From: Spirochaetota bacterium
GTDB lineage: Bacteria; Spirochaetota; UBA4802; UBA5550
DNA length: 52,774 nt
NCBI GenBank assembly: GCA_041655115.1
Contig: JBBAGC010000001.1
Location: 1-52,774, forward strand
Reading direction: 5' to 3'
The notes beneath the pieces are model-generated. The model was not told where the DNA came from. It was given only the letters and a program-made list of their open reading frames with translations, and made no database searches. Position 1 is the first letter of the stretch, and each line of letters begins with the position of its first letter. Positions 20,146 to 51,506 of this stretch are shown here, one piece after another. The position numbers were made by a program, and so were the translations under genes.

Positions 20146-20151
20146 ACGCTT

Positions 20152-31392: not shown

Positions 31393-31402
31393 ACGCCCCC
31401 CT

Positions 31403-35900: not shown

Positions 35901-36953
35901 ACTATATGAAAGGGTATGCGAAAAAATGCCGGGGAAAAATCTGTACAAAAAACTTTTTAGTCGATTCTTCGTTAACGTGGAAACCGGAAGGTGGCTATAA
36001 ATTGCTCGGAACAAAACGACAATAATTTCTTTGGACTGATTCACAATGTAACGCCACATGCCTGCGATGCGGCGTATCGGGGCGGTCATTTTCCATGAAC
36101 GGGAACGGTATATGTCGTTAATGGTCGCATTGAGCCGATCAATCTCTTGCCTTGCCGTTTGACGTTCGCTTTCCAGAAAATCATTCAGCCTATGGATTTC
36201 TTCAGATGTGCTCTTACGTTCATAATACAGAACTCTTAGGAGCCCTTCAGCCGCGACCGAATTCCCCAGAATTCTGTAGAGAGTGAGGATTTTATCGGTT
36301 GTTTCTTCATCGCTACCGAATAACTCGGGAAGAATTTCAGCAGCATGTTTCCCGTAAGCGAGCACGCCCAACCCGTTGGAATGCTGAAACGCAAAAGAGG
36401 GATATTCGATCTTCAACTCATCCCATAATTTCCAGACGCCAAAATCGCCCTCATGTACAGCAATATCGTGCAGCAGAATGACTCCGCGATCACTCATCTT
36501 GAGTTTCCAGTTGTCAAAGTCATGCCGGACGGCCTCATAGGTATGCAACCCGTCTATATGAAGCAGATCAATGGAACCATCGGGAAACCGGGGAACCGCA
36601 TCGTCAAACGTAGATTGAATCAGGAGTGAGAAATGCCCATACTGCTGATCATGTTTCTCACGCAATTCCTCAAAAACTTCTTCTCCATAGTAGCCGGAAT
36701 GTTCATCGCCTGCCCACGTATCAACGGCAAAACACCGTGTCGGCAATTTGAAACGGGAAACAGCTTCGCAGAAAACGAAGTACGAATCCCCTTTGTGTAC
36801 TCCCAATTCGACCAGATTTCGAGGCATTAATTGCCGGACCAGCATAAATGCAAAGGGTATATGCCCATGCCATGAAATAATCTCACCGGTTGTGCGAGGC
36901 GACCAGTCATCAGGCTTAAATATAGATAATTCCAGAAAGCGGTTTGATTTCAT
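32940..36953 (-). CDS. 1337-aa multidomain glycan assembly protein: N-terminal methyltransferase, coiled coil, GT2, GT4-like GT, then zinc-ribbon plus a C-terminal methyltransferase
   Basis: Domains by residue number:
- aa 40-170: [10 protein letters not shown]...[13 protein letters not shown]...VILLHD (methyltransferase)
- aa about 235-290: heptad-rich, charged segment
- aa 386-600: [13 protein letters not shown]...[10 protein letters not shown]...[11 protein letters not shown] (GT2)
- aa 850-960: VGGF...[30 protein letters not shown] (Glycos_transf_1)
- aa 1096-1135: CxxC...CxxC
- aa 1215-1255: [13 protein letters not shown]...[12 protein letters not shown] (methyltransferase). Confidence 0.75.
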
Positions 36954-37558
36954 CTCATACCCACTGTCATTGCACGGTGCCTCAAGCTTCGTACCGCCCT
37001 CATTTTAATGTTCTGCCAGAACCCTTTGTCCGGTTTTCGGCAAACCAACATGGAATCATGCCACCAGTCGCTCCCGTCCTCGTAGCCCTCATCCGACCAC
37101 TGTGTGGAAACTTCAATCACTTCAAGGTGCGCGAATTTCGCCAGTGAGCGCATACCGTCAGGGTAAAATCGCCAGCAATCCAAAGGATATCTGTGTTCCG
37201 GACCACTGGATGGCGCCAGGATGCAACATATGCCGGCCGGTTTTAGCACCCGTGCAATTTCCAGCATTGTTATCCAGAAATACTCGATATGCTCGAACGC
37301 CTGGCCGGAAATGACCACGTCTGCTGAGTTGTCTGTAATTTCTCGCCAAACATATGGTGTGTGTAATACTACATCCACATTATCGCCTTGTGCCATGTCA
37401 ATACCGATATACATCCACTTCGGCTTATGAAACAAAGAACGATATGAACCATTTACATCCTGGCTTCCCAGATCGTAAATGCGCAGAGAGACATCTTCTT
37501 TTCCCGAAAGATACCTCCGGCAAAAATCTTCCATCTTCTTAAATGAACTGGCGTGCAT
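36950..37558 (-). CDS. Class I SAM-dependent methyltransferase
   Basis: [11 protein letters not shown]...[15 protein letters not shown]...[12 protein letters not shown]. An ATGA overlap links it to the 1337-aa gene. Confidence 0.7.
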
Positions 37559-37572: not shown

Positions 37573-38355
37573 TCAGTCTGGCAAGCGATAGATCCAGGCA
37601 TCAGGCCAATAAGTCAATTCTTCTATGACGTGCTCATTCCCGCACAGTGCGGGCGGACGTTTGATAACAAATTCAGGGTGAGCGGCTACAAACTCACGAG
37701 CAGCCGTAGCCGGATTATCATCGATCCATTCAGCCTTCCCCCATGGCGTGTCTGCAAGGTGTTGCATTACACCATCAGCGGCAACTATATATGATCCCGG
37801 TGTAACCATGTCTGCATATGCATTAAGCTCCTCCATCACATGAGATTTTGAATGATCGCTGTCAAGGAAAACAAAAACCTTGCTGTCTGATTTGGTATGT
37901 TCCCGTACCTTTTCCACCACCGCAGTCGACGTGGAATCTCCTTGTATCAAAGTGATCAGATCTCCAAAAGGACTTTGCTCTATTCTCGCCCGCAAATCCG
38001 CCGGTACGACAATATCAACCGAAACGACACGTCCTTTACCAAGCAGACGACATAGGGTTGCAAAAAAAATTGAACTTCCTCCTTGACTAACTCCGGTTTC
38101 GACGATTACATCCGGCCTAAGGGCAACAATTATCTCCTGAAGTCGCAGCAGATCATCCGGAAATTGCCAGACAGGAAAGCCAAACCAGGAAAAGGTTTGC
38201 CAGTGCAACTGGTTCCATTCCTGTTTAATCCAGATACTGGAAAGCAATCTGAATCCTTCTTGCGAGTAAAGCGGGATATCTACTTCGTTGCCACCATTTC
38301 TGGTTTGAATGATGAGTTCATCGGTATCAATTATGATTTTCACAGTATTCCTCAA
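37573..38355 (-). CDS. CmcI / cephalosporin-hydroxylase-family SAM-dependent methyltransferase, copy 2
   Basis: FSWFGFPVWQFPDDLLRLQEIIVALRPDVIVETGVSQGGS parallels the protein encoded at 14572-15378. The start is a TTG at 38355, or possibly a GTG four codons downstream. Confidence 0.7.
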   Translation of the reverse strand: MRNTVKIIIDTDELIIQTRNGGNEVDIPLYSQEGFRLLSSIWIKQEWNQLHWQTFSWFGFPVWQFPDDLLRLQEIIVALRPDVIVETGVSQGGSSIFFATLCRLLGKGRVVSVDIVVPADLRARIEQSPFGDLITLIQGDSTSTAVVEKVREHTKSDSKVFVFLDSDHSKSHVMEELNAYADMVTPGSYIVAADGVMQHLADTPWGKAEWIDDNPATAAREFVAAHPEFVIKRPPALCGNEHVIEELTYWPDAWIYRLPD

Positions 38356-38504
38356 TTGGCTTACTTGTTCGATTCCTCTGAAGTATTCGTTGCTCTTTGG
38401 ATTTTACGAATGCATTGTTCGGGCGACATACCATCTACATAGCACATGTGTTGGTTTGATATGTCCTGACAGAATGATCCTGAGTTTGATGGAAAATTTG
38501 TTGG

Positions 38505-40484
38505 TTAATGACAACTACCACTATTTTCCTCCATAGCACATGATCCCGTTTTCAGAAAGTATTCATTATGTTTTTCCTTTAACATAAGGCCCATGTACTG
38601 TGCAGCCGGAACGCTGAAGTGGTGGCGGTCATAGGTGAACAGTTTTCCCCCAAACATCAATGGACAGTCACTGACAGAATCTCCACGACAGAGTAGCTCC
38701 CTCTTGCTTATGAAGATAACTTGAAGTGTTGAAGCAAGTGTTTTGAGCTCATCATCAAAAGCAAAACTATGCCAATCCATATTTGTTTCATAATGGGCAT
38801 TCATTTCCATATTTCCATCCCGAATAACCATTTCAGGAACATCCTCTTTAAAAAACATATAATTGCCAAGCACAATAATCGGGATATTTGTCTGATTTCT
38901 TATGCACATAATGGTGCGCTTCAAGTTTTCCGGTCTATACCAACTGAAAACGGTATTAATAATTATGAGATCCGCATGGGATAGCTGACCTTGATACAAT
39001 AATCTTTCATTTCGTTTGATACAGCCCTCACGATCTGGATGCTTCGCAGTGAGCAGTTTGTAATCTTCCCGGACTAGGGGAGGACATCCCGCTAATCCAT
39101 GTACTTCGTAATGGTACTCTGGATAGTGTGCGGCTAACGCATTCAAGGCATCAGGCGCGTGACTATCACCGATTATAATCACAGTAAAACCTTTCTTCGG
39201 TGTACCAACTACAATACTTTGGTTTACGGAGCTCATTTCATGAACGAGCTTAAAGCGGGCCTTTTTTTCTGCTTCCGCTTCTTTCGAAAACCTTGTCAAT
39301 TCATCAGGGAACCTCCATGCCCAGCCGTTTCCGGCACTTATCATCATCGACACAGTAAACAAACATACCATACCGCCTGCTGATAATTTCATAAAATCAG
39401 CGAACGATCTGGTATTCTTTTTTTCTGATTGACTGCTTATCCTAAAGGGATTTTCGACAAACCTATACATGGCAACTGCTGTTATTACAGAAACCACAAT
39501 AATGGATATTCTTCCAACCACTCCCGGATCGCATCCGTGCCACTGTCGAAAGAATACAAAGAGGGGCCAGTGGACAAGATATAAAGAATATGAGATACGT
39601 CCCAAACCAACAAACAAGCGGTTAGACAGCAAGGGTTGTGCAATTTTACTTTCACTACCAAACCGAATCAGCAGAACAGCCCCTAGACAGGGAACCAACG
39701 CCATTAGCCCAGGGAATCGTGTTGCGTCTGAATAGGTGAAAACAGCATAAAAAAACAGTATGAAACCGGACAAAGCAAGAGTATTGCGAATCCATCCAGC
39801 AGCTGTTAGTCGGAATGGGACCAATGCACATACGGCACCCACCGTAAATTCCCCGATACGGAATGGCATTAAATAGAAAGCACCTGATGGATCTTTAACG
39901 ATCGCAATTTCTGCCACAATAAAAGACAGAACCCCAACTGCCGTCAGTACAACAACACTATTTCTGGTGTTTCTTAACAATCGGACGAGAAGAGCGATCA
40001 GGACCGGCCAGATGAGATAATACTGAAATTCTACTGCAAGTGCCCATGTATGCAATAAAGGTTTTTGAATCGCTGATGCTTCAAAATATCCGGACTGGCT
40101 CCAAAAATAAAAGTTGGACACTGAAAAAATCGATGCAATTGCACTTTCGCTTGTATGTTTCAGGTCAGCGGGGGAAGAAAAAATAATGCCAGCTGTTAAA
40201 GTGAGCGCAATGGTGAAGAAAAGAGCCGGGACAATGCGGCTGATCCTCCTGCCATAAAACGTCTGAAACGAAAAAACCTCCTTCTGTATCTCTGGAAAGA
40301 CATTACGCGTTATCAGGTAGCCGCTGATAACAAAAAAAACATCCACGCCGACAAAGCCTCCGGCAAAGCACGGCAATAACTTAAAGTGAAATGCCAAAAC
40401 TGCCATAACAGCGAAGGCTCGTAAACCTTCGATGTGCGGTAAAAACAAAGAGTCTGCTTTTATGTTTGACTGAGAGCTACGCAA
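38505..40484 (-). CDS. Acyltransferase-3 (OafA/OatA-like) membrane O-acyltransferase with a C-terminal SGNH-like domain
   Basis: IEGLRAFAVMAVLAFHF at the N terminus, about 10 predicted hydrophobic segments, then a soluble C-terminal region of about 270 aa. The ORF appears to start at a TTG. Confidence 0.75.
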   Translation of the reverse strand: MRSSQSNIKADSLFLPHIEGLRAFAVMAVLAFHFKLLPCFAGGFVGVDVFFVISGYLITRNVFPEIQKEVFSFQTFYGRRISRIVPALFFTIALTLTAGIIFSSPADLKHTSESAIASIFSVSNFYFWSQSGYFEASAIQKPLLHTWALAVEFQYYLIWPVLIALLVRLLRNTRNSVVVLTAVGVLSFIVAEIAIVKDPSGAFYLMPFRIGEFTVGAVCALVPFRLTAAGWIRNTLALSGFILFFYAVFTYSDATRFPGLMALVPCLGAVLLIRFGSESKIAQPLLSNRLFVGLGRISYSLYLVHWPLFVFFRQWHGCDPGVVGRISIIVVSVITAVAMYRFVENPFRISSQSEKKNTRSFADFMKLSAGGMVCLFTVSMMISAGNGWAWRFPDELTRFSKEAEAEKKARFKLVHEMSSVNQSIVVGTPKKGFTVIIIGDSHAPDALNALAAHYPEYHYEVHGLAGCPPLVREDYKLLTAKHPDREGCIKRNERLLYQGQLSHADLIIINTVFSWYRPENLKRTIMCIRNQTNIPIIVLGNYMFFKEDVPEMVIRDGNMEMNAHYETNMDWHSFAFDDELKTLASTLQVIFISKRELLCRGDSVSDCPLMFGGKLFTYDRHHFSVPAAQYMGLMLKEKHNEYFLKTGSCAMEENSGSCH

Positions 40485-40512: not shown

Positions 40513-41210
40513 GAGACCTTTGCACAACTCCCCCATTATCCCTTTCCCTCACGTTCACATAGGCCCTGAAAAACTGTGTTATTCAAAGCTATCATATTAA
40601 TATTACTTGACATTCAAACGTTTTTCTGCCATAGTTCGTCCATAAAAATCACCCTCGGGAGGATTTCATGGGCTTCAAAAACATGAAAGTCAATTTCACC
40701 TTCGCCGACATGGCACTGTCAACCTCAATGGAGAAGAACCGGGCCATCAAACGCATGGAAGAGATCAACGCCATCGCCGACGGCATCATGAGAAGGGCCA
40801 CAGGAAGAACTAGCCTCACGGCCTTCGAAGTAGCGAGGCATAAGGCCATCGCGAAGATCAGATATATCGTCGAACAGTACTTCGGGCTCACCCATCTCCA
40901 TAACAACGCTTCCAGGGCACGGTTTACCACCATCGCCAAAAATGCCACCGACGCCCTCTTCAGGCAATTCGCCTTCAACCTTCAAAGGGGAACCAGGGTC
41001 CTGGCAACATGAAACAAGGGAGTAGTGCGTCCGCAGAGGGAAAAACAGAGAAACGGAGACTCCCAATGAGTCATTCGGGATGTCAAAGGGTCGTGTCATA
41101 GCGGTAAAAACGCTTTCGGTCCGGAACTCCGACCGGAAGTAACCTCCGGAATCCTGAAAAAATGGCCCCGAAAGGGGAAAGCAGGGAATAGGCGATTATT
41201 CAAACGTCTC
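40513..41210 (+). mobile_element. Degenerate IS (IS4/IS5-superfamily type) with an internally deleted transposase
   Basis: GAGACCTTTGCACAACTCCC at 40513 matches the reverse complement of 41191-41210 (GAGACGTTTGAATAATCGCC) at 14 of 20 positions by hand alignment. The 3'-terminal region of about 140 bp recurs at 52248-52391. Confidence 0.6.
40668..41012 (+). pseudogene. Transposase remnant (N- and C-terminal segments of a DDE_Tnp_1-type IS5-like transposase, catalytic core missing)
   Basis: Only 114 aa. FADMALSTSMEKNRAIKRMEEINAI resembles the N-terminal region. RYIVEQYFGLTHLHNNASRARFTTIAKNATDALFRQFAFNLQRG resembles the conserved C-terminal region of IS5-family transposases. Confidence 0.6.
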
Positions 41211-41230: not shown

Positions 41231-42586
41231 TCAATCGTTCCAATTGCAAATATTCTTTACCACATCCTTTTGGAGACAATCGCGGTATTCTGCAAAACTA
41301 AAATATGATATAAGATGGTTATTGTTAATGTTCGGAATTGAATTTTGATGAGGACATACTGAACAAGCCGTATTCAAAAAATTAACGTCTGACGAATCAA
41401 AATATTTTCGAGAGATTACGTAATGCATGCTGTTAAAGACGTTAATGTCTGATAAAATATTCCCGAATAACGCGGACGGATCTTTCAAGGGTTCAAAACA
41501 ACAAGGAAATATGCGGCCAGTGGCGTCCATGGCCATGTCTTTATACAACCACTGACAAGTTTTCATATTTGGCCTTGATCCTTCAAGATAGTCGTCGTCC
41601 ACACGTGAGACCCATGATTTCTCCCAATGATCCTCAATGATCGGATGAAGGTCTATTACAGCGTTTTCAAGAGACTGGCGGCCAGCGCCAATTTGTAAAT
41701 TGAATACATTATAACGAGGTAGTAGGTTTAATGGTTTAGTAATTGTTGGATCGTACATTGAAACATCATATGGTTCGGCAAAATCGATCCGGTCCACACC
41801 TCTCTCTTGGGCCAACTTTTTCGCTTGATTTATTTCAGATATCGTATGATCAAAAAGAAGGTACTGCCATACAATAAAAGGCGTTTTTGATTTCAAATCT
41901 TTGCGGGCTTTAACAAGACGGGTAATGTTGTCGAGGACAAGATCGAAGTTGCCATTGACACGGTACTTACCATAAGTTTCGGCAGTAGCCCCATCGATAG
42001 ATAAAATCAAATAGTCAAGCCCTGAGGCAACCAGCGCCTCTGCATCAAAAGAAAGCGAAAGATTTGTAGAAATAGATGTACGCATCAAAAAACGGCGCGA
42101 TTCCTGAATGAATTGTGGTGTTTTTTTGTTTAACAAAGGCTCCCCCCAGTTAAAATATTGGGTGTTGATTGCATAAGGCCCGAATTCATAGAGGAGTCGG
42201 TCAAGAGTGTCCTTATTCAGGTTACCAGGAACCCAGTCAATTTTGCTTTTATCTTGAGCTGTTTTTCGATGAATGCATCCAGGGCACGCCAATTGGCAGG
42301 AATTACATGGATCGACAATAAGACCAAACGGACGTGAAATCAGTCGGCTATGTCGTCGCAGGTATTGGTATTTACCCACTGCAACGTTGGATATCTTGAG
42401 CAATAAAACTTTGGCAAATCTTTCCGAGCCATAGACTTGCTTTAGATAACTCAACGATTCTCTATTGAAGTTGTCGACTTTTTTAAGAAATATATCAAAT
42501 TCAATTTCAGACTCGCTGAGCGCGGACAGTTCATTTAACAAATTCGATATCGGCAGAAAGTTAGTATTCATTGCCACTTTTTCCAT
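41231..42586 (-). CDS. Radical SAM enzyme with a SPASM/twitch-like C-terminal cysteine motif; function unknown
   Basis: CQLACPGC (CX3CX2C), NWGEPLL and LILSIDGATAETYGKYR form the radical-SAM core. The C-terminal segments CQWLYKDMAMDATGRIFPCC and ACSVCP are SPASM/twitch-like. The ATG at 42586 is preferred over the TTG at 42592. The gene is A+T-rich. Confidence 0.8.
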   Translation of the reverse strand: MEKVAMNTNFLPISNLLNELSALSESEIEFDIFLKKVDNFNRESLSYLKQVYGSERFAKVLLLKISNVAVGKYQYLRRHSRLISRPFGLIVDPCNSCQLACPGCIHRKTAQDKSKIDWVPGNLNKDTLDRLLYEFGPYAINTQYFNWGEPLLNKKTPQFIQESRRFLMRTSISTNLSLSFDAEALVASGLDYLILSIDGATAETYGKYRVNGNFDLVLDNITRLVKARKDLKSKTPFIVWQYLLFDHTISEINQAKKLAQERGVDRIDFAEPYDVSMYDPTITKPLNLLPRYNVFNLQIGAGRQSLENAVIDLHPIIEDHWEKSWVSRVDDDYLEGSRPNMKTCQWLYKDMAMDATGRIFPCCFEPLKDPSALFGNILSDINVFNSMHYVISRKYFDSSDVNFLNTACSVCPHQNSIPNINNNHLISYFSFAEYRDCLQKDVVKNICNWND

Positions 42587-42607
42587 CACCAACTGTAGGG
42601 TGAGTCC

Positions 42608-43639
42608 TTAATTTTTACACTTTATCTTGCGACTAAAAGTTTTCATCATACCAACTATTTGTTTCCCTACTGATTTATATCGAAGGCATTCAAAATGTTG
42701 CTGCAGTTCCTGTAATTCATTTTTATCCGGGTCTCCCGGAAGTTGATTGAGAATGGACTGATAATAATCATTTGCCCGCTTGCTCTCTCTGCTCTTCGGT
42801 TTAAACGAAGAAGATGTCTCATCTATCTTTGAACTGTTAATTTTCTCCTTTAACGGCAAAAGACAATCCGGATTAAATTCCTCTCCCAAAAAGTCAAAAC
42901 AACTGCTCAATGTTGATTCAGGCGAATTAATAAATTCAGTATAACCAATACGCAATACCTTGTTCTTACCGAGCGCTTTCTCACCTTTAATTGCATACTC
43001 AACATGCTTAATCCAATGATCATAAGCTTTTGCTTCATCATGGTTCGCACCGGCGCTTCCCGCCTGAGAAAATTTCATTAAAGAACGCGCAACCTCGTTC
43101 GGGTCTCGAAGCAAATGGATAAATCGCGCTCCGGGAAACAGCAGGGACAAACTATACATGTAATAAACATTCTCCGGTGTCCCATCCACCCAGCGTCGCT
43201 TTGGATCAGATACACTACGAACAACTTGAATATTCTTATTACTAATCGGAGATGTAAATACTTCTCCGGCATTCATTCTTTCATTAATCTCTTTCTCTGT
43301 TAACCCCAACTTTTGCAGGGAACTCTTTTGTATAAACCGTAGACGCGGCTCTCGCGTATCTACAATAAACTGGTCAAGCGCCCGGCCAAAAGCGCCATAA
43401 AAATCCGCCTCATCCCAGTCAAGCGCGCCCAAATGTGAAAAGCGACCGTGTACGGTGCCGACTTCGTAAAGTTTCCGCATGTCAATCGTCAAACGGGCTA
43501 TCCAGTGTGTTTCTGGAAGCGGCAAAATATTGGGGTGCTGCCCAAGACACCAGGTAAGAACACTTGTCCCGGAACGTCCTGAACCGACTATAAATACCGG
43601 CTCGCATTGAGACTGTCGATTAACTTTCACTGAACTCAT
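42608..43639 (-). CDS. Sulfotransferase-family protein, paralogue 1
   Basis: A GSGRSGTS loop (5'-phosphosulfate-binding type) and an RDPNEVARS motif (3'-phosphate-binding type). The ATG at 43639 is preceded by GAGAGG. A GTG at 43645 is an alternative start. Confidence 0.8.
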   Translation of the reverse strand: MSSVKVNRQSQCEPVFIVGSGRSGTSVLTWCLGQHPNILPLPETHWIARLTIDMRKLYEVGTVHGRFSHLGALDWDEADFYGAFGRALDQFIVDTREPRLRFIQKSSLQKLGLTEKEINERMNAGEVFTSPISNKNIQVVRSVSDPKRRWVDGTPENVYYMYSLSLLFPGARFIHLLRDPNEVARSLMKFSQAGSAGANHDEAKAYDHWIKHVEYAIKGEKALGKNKVLRIGYTEFINSPESTLSSCFDFLGEEFNPDCLLPLKEKINSSKIDETSSSFKPKSRESKRANDYYQSILNQLPGDPDKNELQELQQHFECLRYKSVGKQIVGMMKTFSRKIKCKN

Positions 43640-43727
43640 ATTCACCTCTCTGAAACAACTTGCTCCTTTCTACTATTCGCTTCACGAGTAAAGATACCAT
43701 TTCTTCAGAAGAAGTTTTCTCGTTGGA

Positions 43728-44714
43728 TTATGCTTTGTTGATATCGGCGGCATAATTTTCGAAATGTTGTTGCAGTCCCTGCAATTCAACTTGATCAGGG
43801 TCTCCCGGTGATTGATTAAGAATGGACTGATAATAATCATTTGCCCGTTTGCTCTCTCTACTTTTCGGTTTAAATGAAGCAAGAGGCTCATCTATCTTTG
43901 AACTGTTGATTTTCTCCTTTAACGGCAAAAGACAATCCGGATTAAATTCCTCTCCCAAAAAACCAAAACAACTGCGCAACGTAGATTCAGATGAATTAAT
44001 AAAATCTATGTAATCAATTCGTAACACCTTATCCCACCCCAGCGCTTTCTCACCTTTAATTGCATACTCAACATGCTTAAGCCAATGCTCATAAGCTTTT
44101 GCTTCATCATGGTTCTCGCCGGCGCTTCCCGCCTGAGAAAATTTCATTAAAGAACGTGCAACCTCGTTCGGATCCCGAAGTAAATGGATAAACCGCGCTC
44201 CGGGAAACAGCAGAGACAAGCTATACATGTAAAACACATTCTCTGGTGTCCCATCCACCCAGCGACGCTTTGGATCAGATACACTACGAACAACTTGGTA
44301 ATTCTTGGGTGTGACAAGGTCAGGATCCGGACTCAGCTTTCCTTCCTTTTCAAGGTTCTCGATATCAGATTCACTTAATCCTTTTTTTTTGGCTGATAAT
44401 TTACGAATAAATCTCAAACGAGCATCGATTGTATCAATTACGAATTGGTCGACTGAACGTCCAAATGAGGCATAAAAATCCGCCTCATCCCAGTCAAGCG
44501 CGCCCAAATGTGAAAAGCGACCGTGTACGGCGCCGACTTCGTAAAGTTTCCGCATGTTAATCGTCAAACGGGCTATCCAGTGTGTTTCCGGAAGTGGCAA
44601 AATATTGGGGTGCTGCCCAAGACACCAAGTGAGAAGACTTGTTCCCGAACGACCAGAACCGACAATAAATACCGGCTCGCATTGAGACTGTCGATTAACT
44701 TTCACTGAACTCAT
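43728..44714 (-). CDS. Sulfotransferase-family protein, paralogue 2 (tandem duplicate)
   Basis: Numbering from the track GTG start, the first 28 residues are identical to paralogue 1, and the RBS region is also identical. It carries the same GSGRSGTS and RDPNEVARS motifs. The central segment and the C terminus differ. Confidence 0.8.
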   Translation of the reverse strand: MSSVKVNRQSQCEPVFIVGSGRSGTSLLTWCLGQHPNILPLPETHWIARLTINMRKLYEVGAVHGRFSHLGALDWDEADFYASFGRSVDQFVIDTIDARLRFIRKLSAKKKGLSESDIENLEKEGKLSPDPDLVTPKNYQVVRSVSDPKRRWVDGTPENVFYMYSLSLLFPGARFIHLLRDPNEVARSLMKFSQAGSAGENHDEAKAYEHWLKHVEYAIKGEKALGWDKVLRIDYIDFINSSESTLRSCFGFLGEEFNPDCLLPLKEKINSSKIDEPLASFKPKSRESKRANDYYQSILNQSPGDPDQVELQGLQQHFENYAADINKA

Positions 44715-44753
44715 ATTCACCTCTCTGAAATTTGACGCTCGATGGGGGACTTG

Positions 44754-45092
44754 TTACGAGGACGTCAGATTTGCCTTCTGGACAAAGTCACGTGCCCGGT
44801 TGATTTGAGCAGGCGAAAGTTCAACGCGATGGAAAACAAAATCATCAATGCCCTCTTTTTTCAACCCTTTTGCCACACCAACTTCAACCTGCGCATCTCC
44901 ACATCCAAAACTGATCAAATTCCGATTGCCCGTTTTTATGATTCGTTCTGCAAATGGCTTCCAATAAAACTCCAGATGGTTGTTCACAGCAAATATTTCC
45001 GTAAAACCTAGTTTGAAATATTTTTCCTGCCAGTATCGAAAAATATCAGAAAGCTGTGCATGCATGTTTTCAGTATGTTCGTATTGCCGCAT
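44754..45092 (-). pseudogene. N-terminal half of a class I SAM methyltransferase (probable truncated gene)
   Basis: LISFGCGDAQVEVGVAKGL (motif I) and FHRVELSPAQINRARDF (post-I) are present. The ORF stops after about 112 aa, before motifs II and III, 33-40 nt ahead of the sulfotransferase start. Confidence 0.5.
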
Positions 45093-45127
45093 ATTGTTTT
45101 GTTCTGTTAAACACAAATCCTCTCCCG

Positions 45128-45883
45128 CTATTTTCTTGTCTGAACTATACTTTTACGATAAGCTTCCAATACTTTGGGAACCTTGCCCTGTGCCTGGGTT
45201 TTGCCATTTTCTATCCAGATCAACCTGTCACAAATTTCCTGTATTAGAGGGATCACATGTGAAACCAGAACTACCGTTTTGTCAGACTTTATCCGTCTCT
45301 TCATTGCCGCCGTAGATTTTTCTTTGAAAGCCTCATCACCAACCCCAAGAACTTCATCCAACAAAATAACATCCGGGTCTAGATGATAGGCAACGGAGAA
45401 GCCCAGTCGGGCACGCATACCGGTGGAATAGGTGTTAACTGGTTCTTCGAAAAAGCCGTTGAGCTCAGAGAAGGCAACGATATCATCTAAACGAGATGCT
45501 ATTTCTTGTTTCTTAGCACCCAACAACATGCCGCTCAAGATGGCATTTTCTCGACCGCTCAGATGCGGCACGAAGCCGGCTCCAATTGAGATCATTGTTA
45601 TTTTTAAGTTTGGCTGGTGTACGATTATCTTTCCTTTATTGGGTGCAATGATACCGCCCAATACTCGAAGAAGCGTACTTTTACCACACCCGTTTCTTCC
45701 TATCACACCCAGAGTTTCACCTGCATACAAGTCAAACGATACATCTTGGAGCGCCCAGAAGTGAGAATGTCGTAAAAAGCGAAGACGACGGCTGTAGCAC
45801 AAGCCAACATTTTCAAGAGTAATGATTCTATTGCCTTTTTGATTGGGGTACAGTGGCTTACTTTTGTGTGCCTCAAGGGACAT
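45128..45883 (-). CDS. wzt: ABC-transporter ATP-binding protein for polysaccharide export (Wzt/TagH-like), without a C-terminal carbohydrate-binding extension
   Basis: Walker A GRNGCGKST, signature YSTGMRARL, and Walker B ILLDEVL. The protein is only 251 aa. Confidence 0.85.
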   Translation of the reverse strand: MSLEAHKSKPLYPNQKGNRIITLENVGLCYSRRLRFLRHSHFWALQDVSFDLYAGETLGVIGRNGCGKSTLLRVLGGIIAPNKGKIIVHQPNLKITMISIGAGFVPHLSGRENAILSGMLLGAKKQEIASRLDDIVAFSELNGFFEEPVNTYSTGMRARLGFSVAYHLDPDVILLDEVLGVGDEAFKEKSTAAMKRRIKSDKTVVLVSHVIPLIQEICDRLIWIENGKTQAQGKVPKVLEAYRKSIVQTRK

Positions 45884-45904: not shown

Positions 45905-46702
45905 TTAATGAATGATTTTGGGATAAATCCGGTCAAATCTGTAATACAATAACATTGCAAAAGCCATCGTTACCGCAGAGAATAATATAATCAATACAAG
46001 ATGTAGCAAATCAGGAAGAACGCTGTTGTGAAGCACTTGGCGGTACATATTGATCATAACTGCCATCGGATTCAACCAGAGATAACCCTGAATAGATTCA
46101 GGCAATCTTGAAATGTCAAAAAAAATCCCGGAAAGGAAAAAGAGCATCAGCAGGAAATTATCCAATATGAAGCGAAGATCCGGGAAAAAGGGCATAATTG
46201 CCGCGAAAAAACCGGACACTGCTACAATTAAAAAGAGTTGCGTCACTATCAAAATCGGCAGAAACGTCCAGGACCACGTTATCTTCGTTTCCGTGAATTG
46301 CAGAAAAACAAGATAGAGTGCGAGGACCACAAAAAATTTAAAGGTATTGACTGCAACGGTGGTCAGGGGAAAAAGAATTTTCGGGACGTACACCTGGTTC
46401 ATCAGTCCAACATTTGCCATGAGACTGCTCGCACCGGCAGAAACGGTTGACTGGAACCATTTCCATACAATCAGGCCGGTCAGCAGAAAAATAACAAAAT
46501 TCTCATCACCCCGCTTAAATAGGTGTAAGAAAACAAAGTAAAAAATAGTCATGTACATAACTGGTTCTAAAATCCACCACAGCACCCCCAGATAACCCCG
46601 TGAAGCTTCCACGCGCAATCCGGCTTTTGCTTTCTGCATTACCAGATCAATGAAATGTCGCCGCTCCTTATAGCCTGTGCGAATCGTGTCTTTGATGCTC
46701 AT
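45905..46702 (-). CDS. wzm: ABC-2-type polysaccharide export permease (Wzm-like)
   Basis: About 265 aa with six hydrophobic segments. GYLGVLWWILEPVMYM is typical of ABC-2 permeases. A GTG at 46717 is an alternative start. Confidence 0.8.
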   Translation of the reverse strand: MSIKDTIRTGYKERRHFIDLVMQKAKAGLRVEASRGYLGVLWWILEPVMYMTIFYFVFLHLFKRGDENFVIFLLTGLIVWKWFQSTVSAGASSLMANVGLMNQVYVPKILFPLTTVAVNTFKFFVVLALYLVFLQFTETKITWSWTFLPILIVTQLFLIVAVSGFFAAIMPFFPDLRFILDNFLLMLFFLSGIFFDISRLPESIQGYLWLNPMAVMINMYRQVLHNSVLPDLLHLVLIILFSAVTMAFAMLLYYRFDRIYPKIIH

Positions 46703-46769
46703 GCGAAGAGGCTCCACGGTATCGGACGTTGTGTTTCTCGGATAAGTGATTGATGGTTCCTGTAGTCAG

Positions 46770-47696
46770 TTATATTTTTTTCAATGCTACTGCTGCTACG
46801 AGCCCAAGATTTTCTGCCATCATCTGCCGATACACGCCGGATCGTTTCATGCCGATCAGGCGGGGCAGCAACCAGCGCTTTCGAGCGGCGGCGAATTTTT
46901 CCAGAATCTTCCGGTTCTCCGGCGTGAGACGGAAAATCAGATTCTGCAATGCTTTAATATTCCGGTCGTTCCAGTTCTTGTAGCGACCCCGCAACATCAT
47001 GCGAAGACGTGATGCACGGTCTGCCCAGCCGTTGCTTATACCGATCTCGTTTCTGTCATGCTGGCGGTAGCGGACCGTCGGGTGCGGGTCGTAGTGAATA
47101 CGGCCGCCGCAGCCGCTGACGACAAGGTACAGCCACCAGTCGTGTATGACGATGTCCGCGCGGGATGTCGTTTCAAGGAGAAGTTCCCGGGCGGCGTTGT
47201 TGAAAACCATGGTGTTGCCGCCGGCGATGTTCTGCACCAGCGCGTTGGCAAAGGACGGCTGTTTGGTAAATAATGGCGAAAAGCCGATCGCTCTGCCATC
47301 GGCGTCAACGATGCGGGTGCGGGAACAGTAGAGTGCCGGGGTGTCCGGTGACGTTTCGCCGAGTCGCTCAACTGCTGTTTTAAGCTTGTGGGTTTCCCAT
47401 AGATCGTCCTGGTCCGCCCAGGCATAATTGCCGGTGGTGCCCGCCTGCTGCGTCACGAAAAGGAAATTGGCCACATATCCCAGTGCCGGTCCTGCAAATA
47501 TCTCAAGGCGGTCATCGCCCCATCGCCGGCGGTATTTTTCAAGAATGTTTCGTGTGTTGTCCCGGGAACCGTCGTCCGACGCAAGAACCCGCCAGTGCTT
47601 ATAATCTTGGGCCTCGATGGAATCGAGCTGAGCCGGGAGGTAGCGTTCTCCGTTACAGGTGCAAAGCAGGATTGTTACGGCGCCGGAGGGTTCCAT
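46770..47696 (-). CDS. GT2-family glycosyltransferase
   Basis: VTILLCTCNGERYLPAQLDSIEAQDYKHWRVLASDDGSRDNT and a WADQDDLW motif. The ATG at 47696 is preferred over the GTG at 47705. Confidence 0.8.
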   Translation of the reverse strand: MEPSGAVTILLCTCNGERYLPAQLDSIEAQDYKHWRVLASDDGSRDNTRNILEKYRRRWGDDRLEIFAGPALGYVANFLFVTQQAGTTGNYAWADQDDLWETHKLKTAVERLGETSPDTPALYCSRTRIVDADGRAIGFSPLFTKQPSFANALVQNIAGGNTMVFNNAARELLLETTSRADIVIHDWWLYLVVSGCGGRIHYDPHPTVRYRQHDRNEIGISNGWADRASRLRMMLRGRYKNWNDRNIKALQNLIFRLTPENRKILEKFAAARKRWLLPRLIGMKRSGVYRQMMAENLGLVAAVALKKI

Positions 47697-47757
47697 GTCA
47701 CCCACAAAGGGGGCTGGGCCTGGTGATGCGAGATGTTACTTTACCCTTCAAAAATCT

Positions 47758-47936: not shown

Positions 47937-48995
47937 TCACGTGTAGTGTTTTTCGATCCAGTCTCGGTAACTGCCGGTGGTAACGTTACGTACCCACTCT
48001 CCGTTGTCAAGGTACCACTGCACGGTCTTGCGGATACCCGTCTCGAAGGTTTCTTCGGGTCTCCAGCCCAGTTCTCGCTCTATTTTCGTCGCGTCGATGG
48101 CATAGCGACGATCATGGCCGGGTCGATCTTTCACAAAGGTGATCTGTTCCCGGTAACTTTTACCGTCTTCGCGGGGACGCTTCTCGTCGAGCATGTCACA
48201 AAGGGTATGGACCACGTCAAGGTTGGCCTTTTCGTTCCAGCCGCCGATGTTGTAGGTTTCGCCGACAATTCCGGATTCGATGACCCGGTTGATGGCGCGG
48301 CAGTGATCAATGACATAGAGCCAATCGCGAACCTGCCGGCCGTCACCGTAAATGGGAAGGGGCTTGCCGGCAAGGGCGTTGTGGAGGATCAGGGGGATCA
48401 GTTTTTCCGGGAACTGGTAGGGGCCATAGTTGTTGGAGCAGTTTGTGGTAAGCACCGGAAGTCCATAGGTGTGGTGGTAGGCACGGACGAGATGGTCGGC
48501 GGCGGCCTTGCTGGCGGAGTAGGGGCTGTTCGGAGCGTAGCGGTTGTTTTCACTGAAGGCGGGGGCTTCGCTATCCAGCGTTCCATACACTTCGTCGGTG
48601 GAAACATGCAAAAAGCGGAAGGCTTCTTTCTGTTTGCCTTCAAGACCGTTCCGGTAGTCCCGGACAGATTCAAGGAGCCGGAAGGTTCCCACGATGTTGG
48701 TCCGGATGAAATCGTCAGGACCGTGAATACTTCGGTCGACATGGGATTCAGCGGCAAAATTGATGACGGCGGCGGGCTGATGCTCGGAGAGGAGACGAGA
48801 TACCAGCGCTGTATCACCGATATCGCCCTTGACAAAGATATGGGCGGGGTTGTCGCGAATGCCGGCAAGGTTTTCCGGATTTCCGGCGTAGGTCAGTATG
48901 TCAAGGTTGACTACAGGTTCAGTGGAATGTGCGAGCCGTTCGAGAACGAAGTTGCTTCCGATAAACCCGGCTCCTCCCGTAACAAGTATTGTCAT
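47937..48995 (-). CDS. rfbB: dTDP-glucose 4,6-dehydratase
   Basis: [26 protein letters not shown] and YSASKAA motifs. The size is 352 aa. Confidence 0.9.
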
Positions 48996-49020: not shown

Positions 49021-50292
49021 TTATCCCCGTATCATGCCGGCGGCGACGGTATTGTTGGTGGCCTCGTCGATGAGGATGAAACTGCCCGTTGTCCTGTTCT
49101 GCTTGTAAGGATCGAAGAGCAGGGGTCTGGTGGTTCTGAGCTGAACGCGGCAGATGTCGTTCATGACGATATGTTTTTCGTTTTCCATGCGGCTCAGTTC
49201 GTTGATGTCCATTTTGTAGATCACGTCCTTTATCATGGCCCGCACTTCCGCTGAGGTGTGTTTCAGGGCGTACTTGCCCCCCACTTGAAGTGGTTTTTCG
49301 CTGAACCAGCAGATCATGGCATCGATGTCCTGGCTTGTTGCGGGCTGGTTGTTGGGCTTGGCGATCATGTCGCCGCGGCTGATGTCAATGTTGTTTTCCA
49401 GTTCCAGTGACACAGACATGGGAGGATGGGCCTCCTCGACGGGCTGATCGTACTCATGAATTGACTTTACGATGCTTTCAAAGCCCGAGGGCAGGACCAC
49501 GATCCGCTCGCCCGTTCTGAAAACGCCGCTTACCACCCTGCCGCTGTAGCCGCGGTAGTCACGATACCCTTCTACGTCCTGGGGGCGAATCACATACTGT
49601 ATAGGGAAGCGGGCATCGATGACATTGTAGTCGCTGGCGATGTGGATGTTTTCGAAGAGGTACATGAGCGTGGGACCGTTGTACCAGGTCATCTGTTCCG
49701 ATCGGTTGACGATGTTGTCACCTTTCAGGGCGCTGATGGGAACAAACTGAATGTCGTTGATATCCATTTTCGAGGCAAACCGTTTATAGCTGTCAACGAT
49801 TTCTTCATAACGCCCCTCGGAGTAATCCACCAGGTCCATCTTGTTGACGCAGATGACCAGGTGGGGGATGCCGAGAAGTGAGGCGATGTAGGAATGCCGT
49901 TTGGTCTGCTCGATGACGCCGTTGCGCGCGTCCACCAGGATCAGGGCCAGGTTGACCGTTGACGCCCCCGTGACCATGTTCCGGGTGTACTGGGTGTGAC
50001 CGGGCGTATCGGCAATGATGAACTTGCGCTTCGGCGTGGCGAAATAGCGATAGGCCACGTCGATTGTAATGCCCTGTTCCCGTTCCGCCTTGAGTCCGTC
50101 GGTGAGAAGAGCCAGATCGACGTTTTTGAGACCTTTTTTGCGGCTCGTTCGTGTGACCGCTTCGAGCTGGTCCTCAAAAATACCCTTGCTGTCGTAGAGC
50201 AGCCGTCCGATGAGGGTGCTCTTTCCGTCGTCAACACTGCCTGCGGTAGAGAAGCGAAGCAGTTCCATGTCAAGGTACGATTTTTTCTTCAT
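49021..50292 (-). CDS. cysN: Sulfate adenylyltransferase subunit 1 (GTPase subunit, no fused APS kinase)
   Basis: [33 protein letters not shown] and NKMD GTPase motifs. The size is 423 aa. Confidence 0.9.
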
Positions 50293-50314
50293 ATCCTGCT
50301 TTCTGTCAAAAACT

Positions 50315-50509
50315 GGAGACCTTTCATTTTATCATTTCGAGAAGCATGGCGACGAGAAATCCATGTCCCGAGCACAGCGAGGGGTCTTCTAGACTTCTCA
50401 CATGCGTTCGAAGTGACCTTTAAAAATGTCATTTCGAGGAGCGAAGCGACGAGAAATCTTTCCTTGATATCGAAATGACACACAATCGATAGTTTTTCAA
50501 TAACGGTCT
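50315..50509 (-). mobile_element. MITE-like repeat copy R9 (reverse orientation), between cysD and cysN
   Basis: GAGACCTTTCATTTTATCATTTCGAG ... reversed core ... TCGAAATGACACACAATCGATAGTTTTTCAATAACGGTCTC. A perfect 5-bp direct repeat AACTG lies at 50310-50314 and 50510-50514. Confidence 0.85.
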
Positions 50510-50570
50510 CAACTGGATTTATTCTTCGAATACTGCATCTCGTTTTCGTGGGAATGACGTGAAGGAGGTT

Positions 50571-51479
50571 TTAAAAATAACCGTTGATCTTTCTGTCCTC
50601 CATGGCGGTATCAGAGCGTTTGTCGTCGAAACGGCCGCCCCGCTCGGTGATTCTCGAAGCGGCCACTTCCTGTATGATGTCTTCCACGGTGGACGCCTGG
50701 GAGGTGACAACGCCGGTACAGGTCATGTCGCCCACGGTGCGGCACCGGACGACCAATTCTTCGACCCGGTCGGCGTCGTCGACCTGGACATAGGGGGACA
50801 GGGCGAGCATGACGCCGTCACGGTGAACAACTTTTCGGGTGTGGGAAAAATAGATGTCCGGGATAGGAATATTCTCCAAGGCAATGTACTGCCAGACATC
50901 CATTTCGGTCCAGTTGCTCAAGGGGAAAACGCGGAAATGTTCGCCCATATGCTTTCGGCCGTTAAAAATGTTCCAGAGCTCGGGGCGCTGATTCTTGGGG
51001 TCCCACTGGCCGAAATCGTCGCGATGGGAGAAGAAACGTTCCTTGGCTCGGGCCTTTTCTTCATCACGGCGGGCACCGCCGATTGCCGTGTCGAATTTGT
51101 GTTCTTCGATGGCGTCAAGCAACGTGGTGGTCTGGAGAACGTTGCGGGACGTGTATTTCCCTGTTTCTTCCACAACACGCCCCCTGTCGATAGACTCCTG
51201 GACCGAGGCTACAATCAACTGCGCGTCGAGCATCGCGATAAAGGTATCACGGTATTTGATGGTTTCGGGAAAATTGTGGCCCGTGTCCACGTGCATGAAC
51301 GGATAGGGAATGCGCGCGGGGAAGAAGGCTTTTCTCGACAGCCGGCCGAGAACGATCGAATCCTTGCCGCCGGAAAAGAGCAGGACAGGGTTTTCAAACT
51401 GTGCCGCCACCTCCCGTAAAATAAAAACTGCTTCCGATTCCAGTTCCCGCAGGTGTGTGATGTAATATTGCTGTGGCAT
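50571..51479 (-). CDS. cysD: Sulfate adenylyltransferase subunit 2
   Basis: LRELESEAVFILREVAAQFENPVLLFSGGKDS (PP-loop) and the CysD-typical ...RISGYF-type C terminus (here KINGYF). The size is 302 aa. Confidence 0.9.
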   Translation of the reverse strand: MPQQYYITHLRELESEAVFILREVAAQFENPVLLFSGGKDSIVLGRLSRKAFFPARIPYPFMHVDTGHNFPETIKYRDTFIAMLDAQLIVASVQESIDRGRVVEETGKYTSRNVLQTTTLLDAIEEHKFDTAIGGARRDEEKARAKERFFSHRDDFGQWDPKNQRPELWNIFNGRKHMGEHFRVFPLSNWTEMDVWQYIALENIPIPDIYFSHTRKVVHRDGVMLALSPYVQVDDADRVEELVVRCRTVGDMTCTGVVTSQASTVEDIIQEVAASRITERGGRFDDKRSDTAMEDRKINGYF

Positions 51480-51506
51480 ACTGTAGCAGACACTCCTTTT
51501 AGCGTT

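What the first reader, a model, noticed from the sequence alone, without database searches (positions are those of the whole stretch)
41231..44714. Sulfation cassette: two tandem sulfotransferases plus a radical-SAM/SPASM enzyme inside an ABC-transporter glycan locus
Two proteins of 330-345 aa carry sulfotransferase PAPS-binding signatures: a GSGRSGTS loop near the N terminus and an RDPNEVARS motif. Their genes lie directly upstream of, and co-directional with, a gene for a CX3CX2C radical-SAM protein. The gap to that gene is only 16-21 nt, depending on which start is used.

The same minus-strand array contains wzm/wzt, several glycosyltransferase genes and a complete PAPS pathway (49021-52124). 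Sulfated bacterial surface glycans are uncommon. The known cases I recall are rhizobial Nod factor/LPS/K-antigen with NodPQ/NodH-type genes, cyanobacterial sulfated EPS, and mycobacterial sulfolipids.

I do not recognise a sulfotransferase plus rSAM/SPASM pairing in a glycan locus as a described system. The block is visibly more A+T-rich than the flanking cys/rfb genes, so it looks like an acquired module.
Basis: partly seen in the sequence, partly recalled or inferred. Interest (0 to 1): 0.85.

Follow-up and report, generated by a model that had tools for sequence, protein, structure and literature searches.

The report
Sulfotransferase pair plus radical-SAM glycan cassette
Two sulfate-adding enzymes and an uncharacterised radical-SAM enzyme form a recurring gene cassette inside a bacterial surface-sugar export locus, which points to an undescribed chemical step in making sulfated bacterial polysaccharides.

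Summary
Two tandem Sulfotransfer_3 genes (43728-44714 and 42608-43639) and a CX3CX2C radical-SAM gene (41231-42586) lie co-directionally behind wzm/wzt. cysC/cysD/cysN, rml genes, glycosyltransferases and many methyltransferases are nearby.

One correction: the C-terminal domain of the radical-SAM protein is not a canonical SPASM domain. Only four or five Cys are conserved, enough for one auxiliary cluster (Twitch-like), and the Pfam SPASM hit is below threshold.

The pairing is conserved. In every relative of 42-68% identity with enough flank, a sulfotransferase sits beside or near the radical-SAM gene. A sister clade is wedged against Wzt proteins that carry Wzt_C modules, together with Sulfotransfer_2 proteins, some fused to Wzt_C.

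The cassette was inserted. It interrupts a methyltransferase gene whose N- and C-terminal remnants flank a 6.3-kb block (ST-ST-rSAM-IS remnant-acyltransferase).

A peptide-maturase (RiPP) role and a sulfatase-maturase role are unsupported. No paper in the held library describes the pairing.

The likely function is joint tailoring of the lipid-linked polysaccharide. The radical chemistry itself is unknown; epimerisation or oxidation is the first guess, sulfate-assisted elimination the second. A large acidobacterial branch of the same family has no sulfotransferase neighbours.

The parts
51507..52124 (-). cysC, APS kinase (PAPS supply)
   Evidence: Pfam APS_kinase, E 5e-67.
50571..51479 (-). cysD, small subunit of ATP sulfurylase
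   Evidence: Pfam PAPS_reduct domain, E 2e-43. At 302 aa and next to cysN it fits CysD.
49021..50292 (-). cysN, GTPase subunit of ATP sulfurylase
   Evidence: Pfam GTP_EFTU plus GTP-eEF1A_C.
47937..48995 (-). rmlB-type NDP-sugar 4,6-dehydratase
   Evidence: Pfam GDP_Man_Dehyd and Epimerase. rmlA, rmlC and rmlD lie at 27188-29486.
46770..47705 (-). GT2 glycosyltransferase
   Evidence: Pfam Glycos_transf_2.
45905..46717 (-). wzm, ABC-2 permease
   Evidence: Pfam ABC2_membrane. Orthologues precede the ST genes in L001, L003 and L095.
45128..45883 (-). wzt, ABC ATPase of 251 aa with no C-terminal carbohydrate-binding module
   Evidence: Pfam ABC_tran only.
44754..45116 (-). N-terminal fragment (120 aa) of a roughly 340-aa methyltransferase gene, truncated by the cassette
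   Evidence: 76% identical to residues 17-131 of the 336-aa methyltransferase of L087. No Pfam hit on its own.
43728..44714 (-). ST-A, a PAPS-dependent sulfotransferase (328 aa)
   Evidence: Sulfotransfer_3, E 3e-27. AF2 model pLDDT 87.8; best PDB folds are the OLS and CurM sulfotransferases and TPST. The 5'-PSB, PETH and 3'-PB residues are invariant across 42 homologues.
42608..43639 (-). ST-B, a paralogous sulfotransferase (343 aa)
   Evidence: Sulfotransfer_3, E 3e-28. 77% identical to ST-A, with a divergent central block and a divergent C-terminus.
41231..42586 (-). Radical-SAM enzyme (451 aa): N-terminal three-helix domain, rSAM core, and a C-terminal domain with one auxiliary-cluster motif (Twitch-like)
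   Evidence: Radical_SAM at 37 bits; SPASM below threshold. Invariant C99/C103/C106 plus C346, C364, C410 and C413. AF2 pLDDT 92.6. Best PDB folds are BlsE and DesII.
40668..41012 (+). Probable C-terminal remnant of an IS5-like transposase
   Evidence: BLASTP E 2e-6 to residues 238-307 of the 312-aa DDE_Tnp_1 transposase of L092. No Pfam hit.
38505..40484 (-). AT3-SGNH O-acyltransferase, part of the inserted block
   Evidence: Pfam Acyl_transf_3 plus SGNH. The same ST-rSAM-AT3/SGNH order occurs in L085.
38397..38480 (-). Frameshifted C-terminal remnant of the interrupted methyltransferase gene
   Evidence: 'SGHIKPTHVL' and 'CYVDGMSPEQCIRKI' match the C-terminus of the L003 methyltransferase. 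tblastn E 1e-4 in a 10-kb target.
37573..38355 (-). CmcI-type (rhamnosyl) O-methyltransferase
   Evidence: Pfam RMNT_CmcI, E 7e-62.
36950..37558 (-). Methyltransf_11 methyltransferase
   Evidence: Pfam. Same position as in L094 and L087.
32940..36953 (-). 1337-aa multidomain protein (MT24-GT2-GT1-MT11), the presumed polymerase/modifier of the glycan
   Evidence: Pfam. Homologous 1342-1405-aa proteins occur in L094, L095 and L004.

Best explanation
The three genes are a mobile tailoring cassette of an ABC-transporter (Wzm/Wzt)-dependent locus for a heavily O-methylated surface polysaccharide, probably containing rhamnose.

Shown:
- Both STs have the fold and the PAPS-binding and catalytic motifs of active sulfotransferases.
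- A cysDNC set for PAPS synthesis lies next door.
- The rSAM belongs to an uncharacterised family with a canonical SAM cluster and one auxiliary [4Fe-4S] site.
- In the clade that holds the window protein, this family is always encoded next to or near sulfotransferase genes inside glycan loci.

Inferred:
- The two STs sulfate the undecaprenyl-linked glycan on the cytoplasmic face before export. They act at two different acceptor positions, because they differ almost only in a roughly 55-residue central segment and in the C-terminus.
- The rSAM abstracts a hydrogen atom from a sugar carbon of the same glycan and acts in concert with sulfation.
- The most likely reaction is a polymer-level epimerisation or a BtrN-like two-electron oxidation that creates or processes the sulfated residue. 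This parallels the way C5-epimerisation and sulfation are coupled in glycosaminoglycan synthesis and in the Halobacterium N-glycan.

The exact chemistry is not determined.
For: Enzyme identity: for the STs; for the rSAM.

Operon-like layout: gaps of 11-88 nt from wzm through the rSAM.

PAPS genes.

Conserved pairing in subclade I:
- L001/L002: Wzm-Wzt-ST-ST-rSAM.
- L003: cys genes, MT, Wzm-Wzt-ST-rSAM, with the ST stop overlapping the rSAM start.
- L085/L086: ST-rSAM-AT3/SGNH.
- L089: ST-rSAM.
- L087: MT, a 462-aa ST3, a 220-aa weak ST2, rSAM, CmcI.
- L004: ST3, MT-rSAM.

Subclade II:
- L014: ST2-rSAM.
- L088: rSAM followed by an ST2/Wzt_C fusion.
- L093: rSAM, Wzt, ST2/Wzt_C fusion, arylsulfotransferase.
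- L092: Wzt, rSAM, ST2, sulfatases.
- The rSAM lies directly beside Wzt in L005 and L007.

Outside the two subclades:
- L056: ST3-Wzm-Wzt...rSAM.
- The rSAM lies directly beside Wzt in L009 and L024.

The NJ tree puts all ST-linked members except L056 in one clade, separate from the acidobacterial branch.

Fusions that point to a polymer substrate:
- P0258: rSAM plus Methyltransf_24.
- P0314: rSAM plus a Wzt_C-like domain.

Precedent for coupling epimerisation to sulfation: deleting the Agl32 epimerase abolishes sulfation of the Halobacterium N-glycan (PMC12624080).
Against: - No biochemical data exist for any family member, and the source organism is an uncultured MAG.
- The largest branch of the family (Acidobacteriota, 35-39% identity) has no conserved neighbours and no ST next door. 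The family's chemistry therefore cannot intrinsically require a sulfotransferase.
- Homologous ST pairs also occur with unrelated rSAM families, in L094 and L095. The ST side is not specific to this rSAM.
- The structural matches of the rSAM are generic (TM 0.4-0.5) and do not fix a reaction type.
- The window Wzt lacks a Wzt_C module, so a role in terminal capping is not indicated here.
Confidence: 0.62

Rival explanations
1. Activating sulfation. An ST turns a sugar hydroxyl into a sulfate leaving group. The rSAM makes a radical on the neighbouring carbon and expels the sulfate. The product is a deoxy, keto or unsaturated sugar, so that position carries no sulfate in the final glycan.
For: - The closest solved relatives of the STs, by sequence and by fold, are the 'activating' sulfotransferases of olefin synthase and CurM.
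- The best structural relatives of the rSAM include DesII and viperin. From established knowledge, both perform radical-triggered beta-eliminations on sugars or nucleotides.
- The ST and rSAM genes overlap or nearly touch.
Against: - Loci carry two or three STs of different families, and some STs are fused to glycan-binding Wzt_C modules. Both features fit sulfate as a final decoration better.
- The ST similarity to CurM/OLS is no stronger than its similarity to TPST.
- No reductase is consistently associated.
Confidence: 0.15
2. Independent tailoring enzymes. The rSAM modifies a sugar or NDP-sugar, for example by epimerisation, C-methylation or oxidation, with no chemical link to sulfation. 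The adjacency reflects co-inheritance within hypervariable glycan loci.
For: - Homologous ST pairs sit with different rSAM families in the syntenic loci L094 and L095.
- Acidobacterial family members lack STs.
- Glycan loci are mosaics of tailoring genes.
Against: The pairing persists across rSAM identities of 36-68% and across at least four different ST architectures: a 330-aa ST3, a 460-aa ST3, ST2, and ST2-Wzt_C. The genes often overlap.
Confidence: 0.17
3. Protein maturase. The rSAM modifies a protein post-translationally, for example by making formylglycine in a sulfatase or alkaline-phosphatase-superfamily enzyme, as the anaerobic sulfatase-maturating enzymes do.
For: - Sulfatase or Phosphodiest genes occur in L005, L007 and L092.
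- A sulfatase is the downstream neighbour in 3 of 74 mostly acidobacterial loci.
- Orphan, multi-copy genes in sulfatase-rich Acidobacteriota would suit a general maturase.
Against: - There is no sulfatase in the window or in any subclade-I locus.
- No NCBIfam anSME hit appears among 25 weak partial matches.
- Only one auxiliary-cluster motif is present; from memory, anSME has two.
Confidence: 0.05
4. RiPP cluster. The rSAM and STs mature a ribosomal peptide, and the ABC-2 transporter exports it.
For: - Many SPASM/Twitch rSAMs are peptide maturases; SuiB, SkfB and CteB are among the fold matches.
- TPST-like fold of the STs.
Against: - The N-terminal domain is a three-helix bundle with no PqqD/RRE hit.
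- No conserved intergenic small ORF was found among seven related loci.
- Every context is dominated by glycosyltransferase and sugar-nucleotide genes.
Confidence: 0.01

Closest known systems
Sulfated bacterial polysaccharide loci with PAPS genes and sulfotransferases (rhizobial LPS/K-antigen sulfation, cyanobacterial synechan, and the marine Vibrio and Cobetia capsules of PMC11641403 and PMC11766843)
   Same: PAPS-dependent sulfotransferases are encoded in a glycan locus together with cysDNC-type genes for PAPS supply.
   Different: The full-text searches recovered none of these papers as pairing a sulfotransferase with a radical-SAM partner. Here the pairing is the conserved feature, and the pathway depends on Wzm/Wzt.
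WbdD-type terminal modification in ABC-transporter-dependent O-antigen synthesis (E. coli O9a, PMC3482155)
   Same: Tailoring genes lie directly after wzm-wzt. In the sister clade the Wzt proteins carry Wzt_C modules, and the ST, and possibly one rSAM, are fused to Wzt_C-like domains. That suggests they act at the polymer terminus.
   Different: The chemistry differs: sulfate and radical SAM here, against kinase plus methyltransferase there. The window Wzt has no Wzt_C module, so capping-gated export is not indicated in this locus.
Twitch/SPASM radical-SAM enzymes that act on sugars: BtrN, DesII and BlsE
   Same: Radical-SAM core plus a C-terminal Cys-rich auxiliary-cluster domain. BlsE and DesII are the best PDB fold matches, and BlsE is the only significant PDB sequence match. 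The Cys spacing C-X17-C-X45-C-X2-C resembles the BtrN Twitch motif; that comparison is from memory.
   Different: - Identity is only 12-17% and TM 0.4-0.5.
- The conserved roughly 85-residue N-terminal helical domain is peculiar to this family.
- The likely substrate is a lipid-linked polymer rather than a small molecule or NDP-sugar.
Coupled epimerisation and sulfation in glycosaminoglycans and in the Halobacterium salinarum N-glycan (Agl32 with Agl30/Agl31, PMC12624080)
   Same: A carbon-centred modification of a sugar within the lipid-linked glycan is functionally coupled to sulfation. Loss of the epimerase abolishes sulfation.
   Different: Agl32 and the animal C5-epimerases are not radical-SAM enzymes. 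The analogy is functional only and is untested here.
CurM/OLS activating sulfotransferases
   Same: They are the closest solved relatives of ST-A and ST-B by sequence (E 2e-9) and by fold (E 3.5e-8). The PSB loop, the PE(L/T)H motif and the 3'-PB motif are shared.
   Different: Those are domains of polyketide synthases that act on acyl-ACP. Identity is about 19%, and TPST matches nearly as well.

Membership tests
PAPS-dependent sulfotransferase (Pfam Sulfotransfer_3, PF13469) | Profile HMM score above the curated threshold | tested here: met
   100 and 96.8 bits against a cutoff of 27.
PAPS-dependent sulfotransferase (Pfam Sulfotransfer_3, PF13469) | 5'-phosphosulfate-binding loop and 3'-phosphate-binding motif (R...S) | tested here: met
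   GSGRSGTS and RDPNEVARS align with the corresponding motifs of the OLS sulfotransferase. G19, R22, G24, S26, R180 and S188 are invariant in 42 homologues.
PAPS-dependent sulfotransferase (Pfam Sulfotransfer_3, PF13469) | Sulfotransferase fold | tested here: met
   AF2 pLDDT 87.8. The 20 Foldseek PDB matches with E <= 0.001 (OLS ST, TPST1/2, CurM ST, Stf9, Stf1 and others) are all of the sulfotransferase fold.
PAPS-dependent sulfotransferase (Pfam Sulfotransfer_3, PF13469) | Transfer of sulfate from PAPS to an acceptor | not testable with these tools
   Needs an enzyme assay.
Radical SAM superfamily (PF04055) | CX3CX2C cluster motif and profile score above threshold | tested here: met
   C99-X3-C103-X2-C106 is invariant in 38 sequences. 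37 bits against a cutoff of 29.5.
SPASM subfamily (PF13186; seven-Cys motif, two auxiliary clusters) | Profile score above threshold and a full seven-Cys motif | tested here: not met
   18.4 bits against a cutoff of 21.5. Only C346, C364 (with C365), C410 and C413 are conserved. That is enough for one cluster, so the domain is Twitch-like. Some relatives carry a precomputed SPASM hit.
Anaerobic sulfatase-maturating enzyme (anSME) | Sequence membership and a sulfatase substrate gene | tested here: not met
   No anSME model appears among the NCBIfam hits. No sulfatase is encoded in the part of the window that was annotated, about 8-52 kb.
RiPP radical-SAM maturase | RRE/PqqD-like recognition domain and a neighbouring precursor peptide gene | tested here: not met
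   The N-terminus is three helices with no PqqD hit. No conserved intergenic small ORF was found.
ABC-transporter-dependent (Wzm/Wzt) polysaccharide pathway | Adjacent ABC-2 permease and ABC ATPase genes within a locus of glycosyltransferase and sugar-nucleotide genes | tested here: met
   ABC2_membrane and ABC_tran. GT2, the 1337-aa GT, rmlABCD, gmd and a WecA-like GT4.
ABC-transporter-dependent (Wzm/Wzt) polysaccharide pathway | Wzt C-terminal carbohydrate-binding module (the cap-gated subtype) | tested here: not met
   The window Wzt is 251 aa with ABC_tran only. Wzt_C is present in the relatives L005, L088, L092 and L093.

The most novel reading that the evidence does not exclude
The sulfotransferase and the Twitch-type radical-SAM enzyme form a new two-enzyme chemistry on lipid-linked polysaccharides. 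One version is sulfate-activated radical elimination or deoxygenation. The other is a new sulfated, radical-modified terminal residue that ends chain growth and is read by Wzt_C modules. The second version is suggested by the sister clade, where the rSAM is wedged against Wzt proteins bearing Wzt_C and the ST is fused to Wzt_C.
Probability: 0.2. Interest if true: 0.85.

Novelty: new variant of a known kind. Interest (0 to 1): 0.62.

Why it matters
Sulfated bacterial polysaccharides are rare, and they are sought as glycosaminoglycan mimics. Their tailoring enzymes are largely unknown.

This work defines three things:
- An uncharacterised radical-SAM family. It has roughly 1,600 clusters at 50% identity with E <= 1e-30, though the lower-scoring ones may belong to other rSAM families.
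- A clade of that family that is genetically locked to sulfotransferases in O-polysaccharide export loci.
- A compact cassette, with known boundaries, that has evidently moved between loci.

That gives enzymologists a concrete three-gene unit to express. It could reveal new radical chemistry on glycans, or a new kind of chain-terminating cap.

Tried and rejected
- RiPP reading: rejected. No RRE, no conserved small ORF, and a glycan context everywhere.
- anSME/maturase reading: not supported for this clade.
- Local HMMs for sulfotransferases: those built from close homologues were too narrow. They missed the 460-aa ST3 and the ST2 proteins that Pfam detects. ST presence within +/-10 kb in the 70-odd acidobacterial loci was therefore judged only from Pfam on the immediate neighbours.
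- Metagenome scan with the single protein: only three loci came back.
- Context of the rSAM-Wzt_C-like fusion P0314: the contig is too short to be informative.
- Terminator scan: no site passed the threshold after the rSAM gene. A 4-bp CCCC/GGGG hairpin followed by a T-run can be seen by eye at about 41160-41185 but is weak.
- The 114-aa transposase-like ORF: no Pfam hit and no plasmid match. It is supported only by a pairwise alignment.
- Literature: seven searches gave no description of the pairing. rSAM genes in LPS loci are mentioned only as unannotated ORFs (PMC3766260).

Full report
**1. What is in the sequence**

The minus strand carries an unbroken, co-directional run of genes between 46.7 and 41.2 kb:
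- wzm (45905-46717)
- wzt (45128-45883)
- a 120-aa ORF (44754-45116)
- ST-A (43728-44714)
- ST-B (42608-43639)
- a radical-SAM gene (41231-42586)

The gaps between them are 11-88 nt.

Both STs match Pfam Sulfotransfer_3 (E about 1e-28). The rSAM matches Radical_SAM above threshold, but its SPASM hit is below threshold. NCBIfam places the rSAM in no curated family; it returns only partial core matches.

Upstream lie a GT2 gene, rmlB and cysN/cysD/cysC. Downstream lie an AT3-SGNH acyltransferase, a CmcI-type O-methyltransferase, a further methyltransferase, a 1337-aa MT-GT2-GT1-MT protein, TylF-type methyltransferases, a GHMP kinase, nucleotidyltransferases and rmlACD. A WecA-like initiating transferase, gmd and a second, Wzx-type cluster follow further on.

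One point needs qualifying, the SPASM label.

**2. The enzymes**

Sulfotransferases:
- ST-A was modelled with pLDDT 87.8. Its best PDB matches are the olefin-synthase and CurM sulfotransferase domains, TPST1/2 and mycobacterial Stf9/Stf1.
- The sequence search of the PDB gives the same families.
- The PSB loop, a PETH motif that aligns with the PPELH of the OLS enzyme, and the R...S 3'-phosphate motif are invariant in 42 homologues.
- ST-A and ST-B are 77% identical, but in a mosaic pattern. Most of the gene, including the ribosome-binding region, is more than 90% identical at the DNA level. A central block (residues about 85-140) and the 3' end are only 43-60% identical.
- I read the divergent block as an acceptor-specificity segment. 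This is an inference.

Radical-SAM enzyme:
- The model has pLDDT 92.6.
- The first roughly 85 residues form three helices, not a winged-helix RRE.
- Across 38 family members the invariant cysteines are C99/C103/C106 plus C346, C364, C410 and C413. That is enough for one auxiliary cluster, a Twitch-like arrangement.
- The best fold matches are BlsE and DesII, both sugar-modifying, followed by SuiB, SkfB, CteB, viperin, MoaA and BtrN. All have modest TM scores.

**3. Is the pairing conserved?**

Yes. The exact rSAM protein is recorded from a Spirochaetota MAG. Relatives at 40-68% identity were traced to their contigs.

| Locus | Gene order |
|---|---|
| L001/L002 | Wzm-Wzt-ST-ST-rSAM-rSAM2 |
| L003 | cys genes, MT, Wzm-Wzt-ST-rSAM |
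| L085/L086 | ST-rSAM-AT3/SGNH |
| L089 | ST-rSAM |
| L087 | MT, ST3, weak ST2, rSAM, CmcI, MT11 |
| L004 | ST3, MT-rSAM, 1404-aa GT |

A neighbour-joining tree of 90 family members groups these with the window as one subclade.

The sister subclade looks like this:
- L005, L007, L008, L014, L088, L092 and L093 belong to it.
- The rSAM lies directly against Wzt proteins that carry Wzt_C modules.
- Sulfotransfer_2 proteins are present, two of them fused to Wzt_C.
- An arylsulfotransferase, sulfatases or paired Phosphodiest genes also occur.

From the ST side, homologous ST pairs also occur in syntenic loci that carry other rSAM families (L094, L095).

In contrast, most of the 434 GTDB hits are from Acidobacteriota, at 35-39% identity, and show no conserved neighbours.

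Two fusion proteins hint that the substrate is the polymer:
- rSAM plus Methyltransf_24.
- rSAM plus a Wzt_C-like domain. The Pfam hit is below threshold; the pairwise E-value to the Wzt_C part of an ST fusion is 4e-6.

**4. Evidence that the cassette was inserted**

- The 120-aa ORF is 76% identical to residues 17-131 of a 336-aa methyltransferase that accompanies the ST and rSAM in L087, L004, L056 and L003.
- A frameshifted remnant of that gene's C-terminus lies at about 38397-38480, just upstream of the CmcI gene.
- The 6.3 kb in between holds ST-A, ST-B, the rSAM, a transposase-like remnant and the AT3-SGNH gene. It therefore replaced the middle of a methyltransferase gene.
- The order ST-rSAM-AT3/SGNH recurs in L085.
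- The block has the lowest GC and GC3 in the region, although wzm/wzt are also low.

**5. Mechanism**

Shown: enzyme classes, intact motifs, PAPS supply, and a conserved genetic coupling within one clade.

Inferred:
- The STs sulfate the lipid-linked glycan in the cytoplasm at two sites.
- The rSAM abstracts a hydrogen atom from a sugar carbon of the same glycan.

I favour an epimerisation or oxidation step coupled to sulfation. The precedent is functional only: epimerase-dependent sulfation in the Halobacterium N-glycan (PMC12624080).

The main rival is activating sulfation followed by radical elimination. The CurM/OLS-like STs and the DesII- and viperin-like fold matches suggest it. Multiple STs per locus and the ST-Wzt_C fusions argue against it.

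Mere co-location, a maturase role and a RiPP role are progressively less likely.

**6. Novelty**

Seven full-text searches found no description of a sulfotransferase plus radical-SAM module in a glycan locus. Radical-SAM ORFs in LPS loci appear only as unannotated curiosities (PMC3766260).

The finding is a new variant of a known kind, namely tailoring of an ABC-transporter-dependent polysaccharide. It is built around an uncharacterised enzyme family.

Noticed in passing
window 44754-45116 and 38397-38480: A roughly 340-aa methyltransferase gene is split. Its N-terminal 120 codons and a frameshifted C-terminal remnant flank the 6.3-kb block ST-ST-rSAM-IS remnant-acyltransferase. This gives exact boundaries for the insertion.
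   Followed up: yes
window 42608-44720: ST-A and ST-B are mosaic paralogues. They are more than 90% identical at the DNA level, ribosome-binding site included, except for a central block (about 44300-44475 in ST-A) and the 3' end. This suggests gene conversion around a diversified acceptor-binding segment.
   Followed up: partly
window 40668-41012 (+): A 114-aa ORF aligns with the last 70 residues of an IS5-type DDE transposase (pairwise E 2e-6). It has no Pfam hit and is probably a remnant of an insertion sequence between the rSAM and acyltransferase genes.
   Followed up: partly
P0121 versus P0001 (database records): The exact ST-A protein is recorded from a MAG labelled Syntrophales (11.9-kb contig). 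The exact rSAM protein is recorded from a MAG labelled Spirochaetota (64-kb contig). Either the same contig was binned differently or the cassette has recently been shared.
   Followed up: no
L088 9407-10819; L093 5031-6455: These roughly 470-aa proteins combine a weak Sulfotransfer_2 domain with a Wzt_C carbohydrate-binding module. They are encoded next to the rSAM and to a Wzt that also carries Wzt_C. I did not find this fusion described.
   Followed up: partly
P0314, P0258, P0249, P0252: Fusions within the rSAM family: rSAM plus a Wzt_C-like domain, rSAM plus Methyltransf_24, and 1600-1700-aa proteins in which TPR repeats precede the rSAM domain.
   Followed up: partly
L011-L084 (Acidobacteriota loci): The family is greatly expanded in Bryobacterales and Solibacter-type genomes, with up to three copies per MAG. 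The genes are orphans with unrelated neighbours, and a sulfatase is the downstream neighbour in 3 of 74 loci.
   Followed up: partly
L005 3319-7480; L092 17512-21464: Paired Phosphodiest (alkaline-phosphatase superfamily) genes of about 680-700 aa recur in the Wzt-linked subclade. L093 carries a periplasmic-type arylsulfotransferase.
   Followed up: no
window 8136-20946: A second, Wzx-type glycan cluster. It includes a sugar C-methyltransferase (17280-18506), another CmcI methyltransferase (14572-15378), a second dTDP-sugar 3,5-epimerase (18503-19081) and a Wzx flippase (13035-14561).
   Followed up: no
window 29583-31443: A GHMP kinase and a nucleotidyltransferase lie downstream of the 1337-aa GT; the same kinase follows the giant GT in L094, and both genes occur in L004. 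They suggest a sugar-1-phosphate activation route, of the heptose or a similar type, feeding the same polymer.
   Followed up: no
window 41160-41185 (-): Just after the rSAM stop codon there is a short CCCC-TTTC-GGGG hairpin followed by CCATTTTTT. It falls below the terminator scan's threshold.
   Followed up: partly
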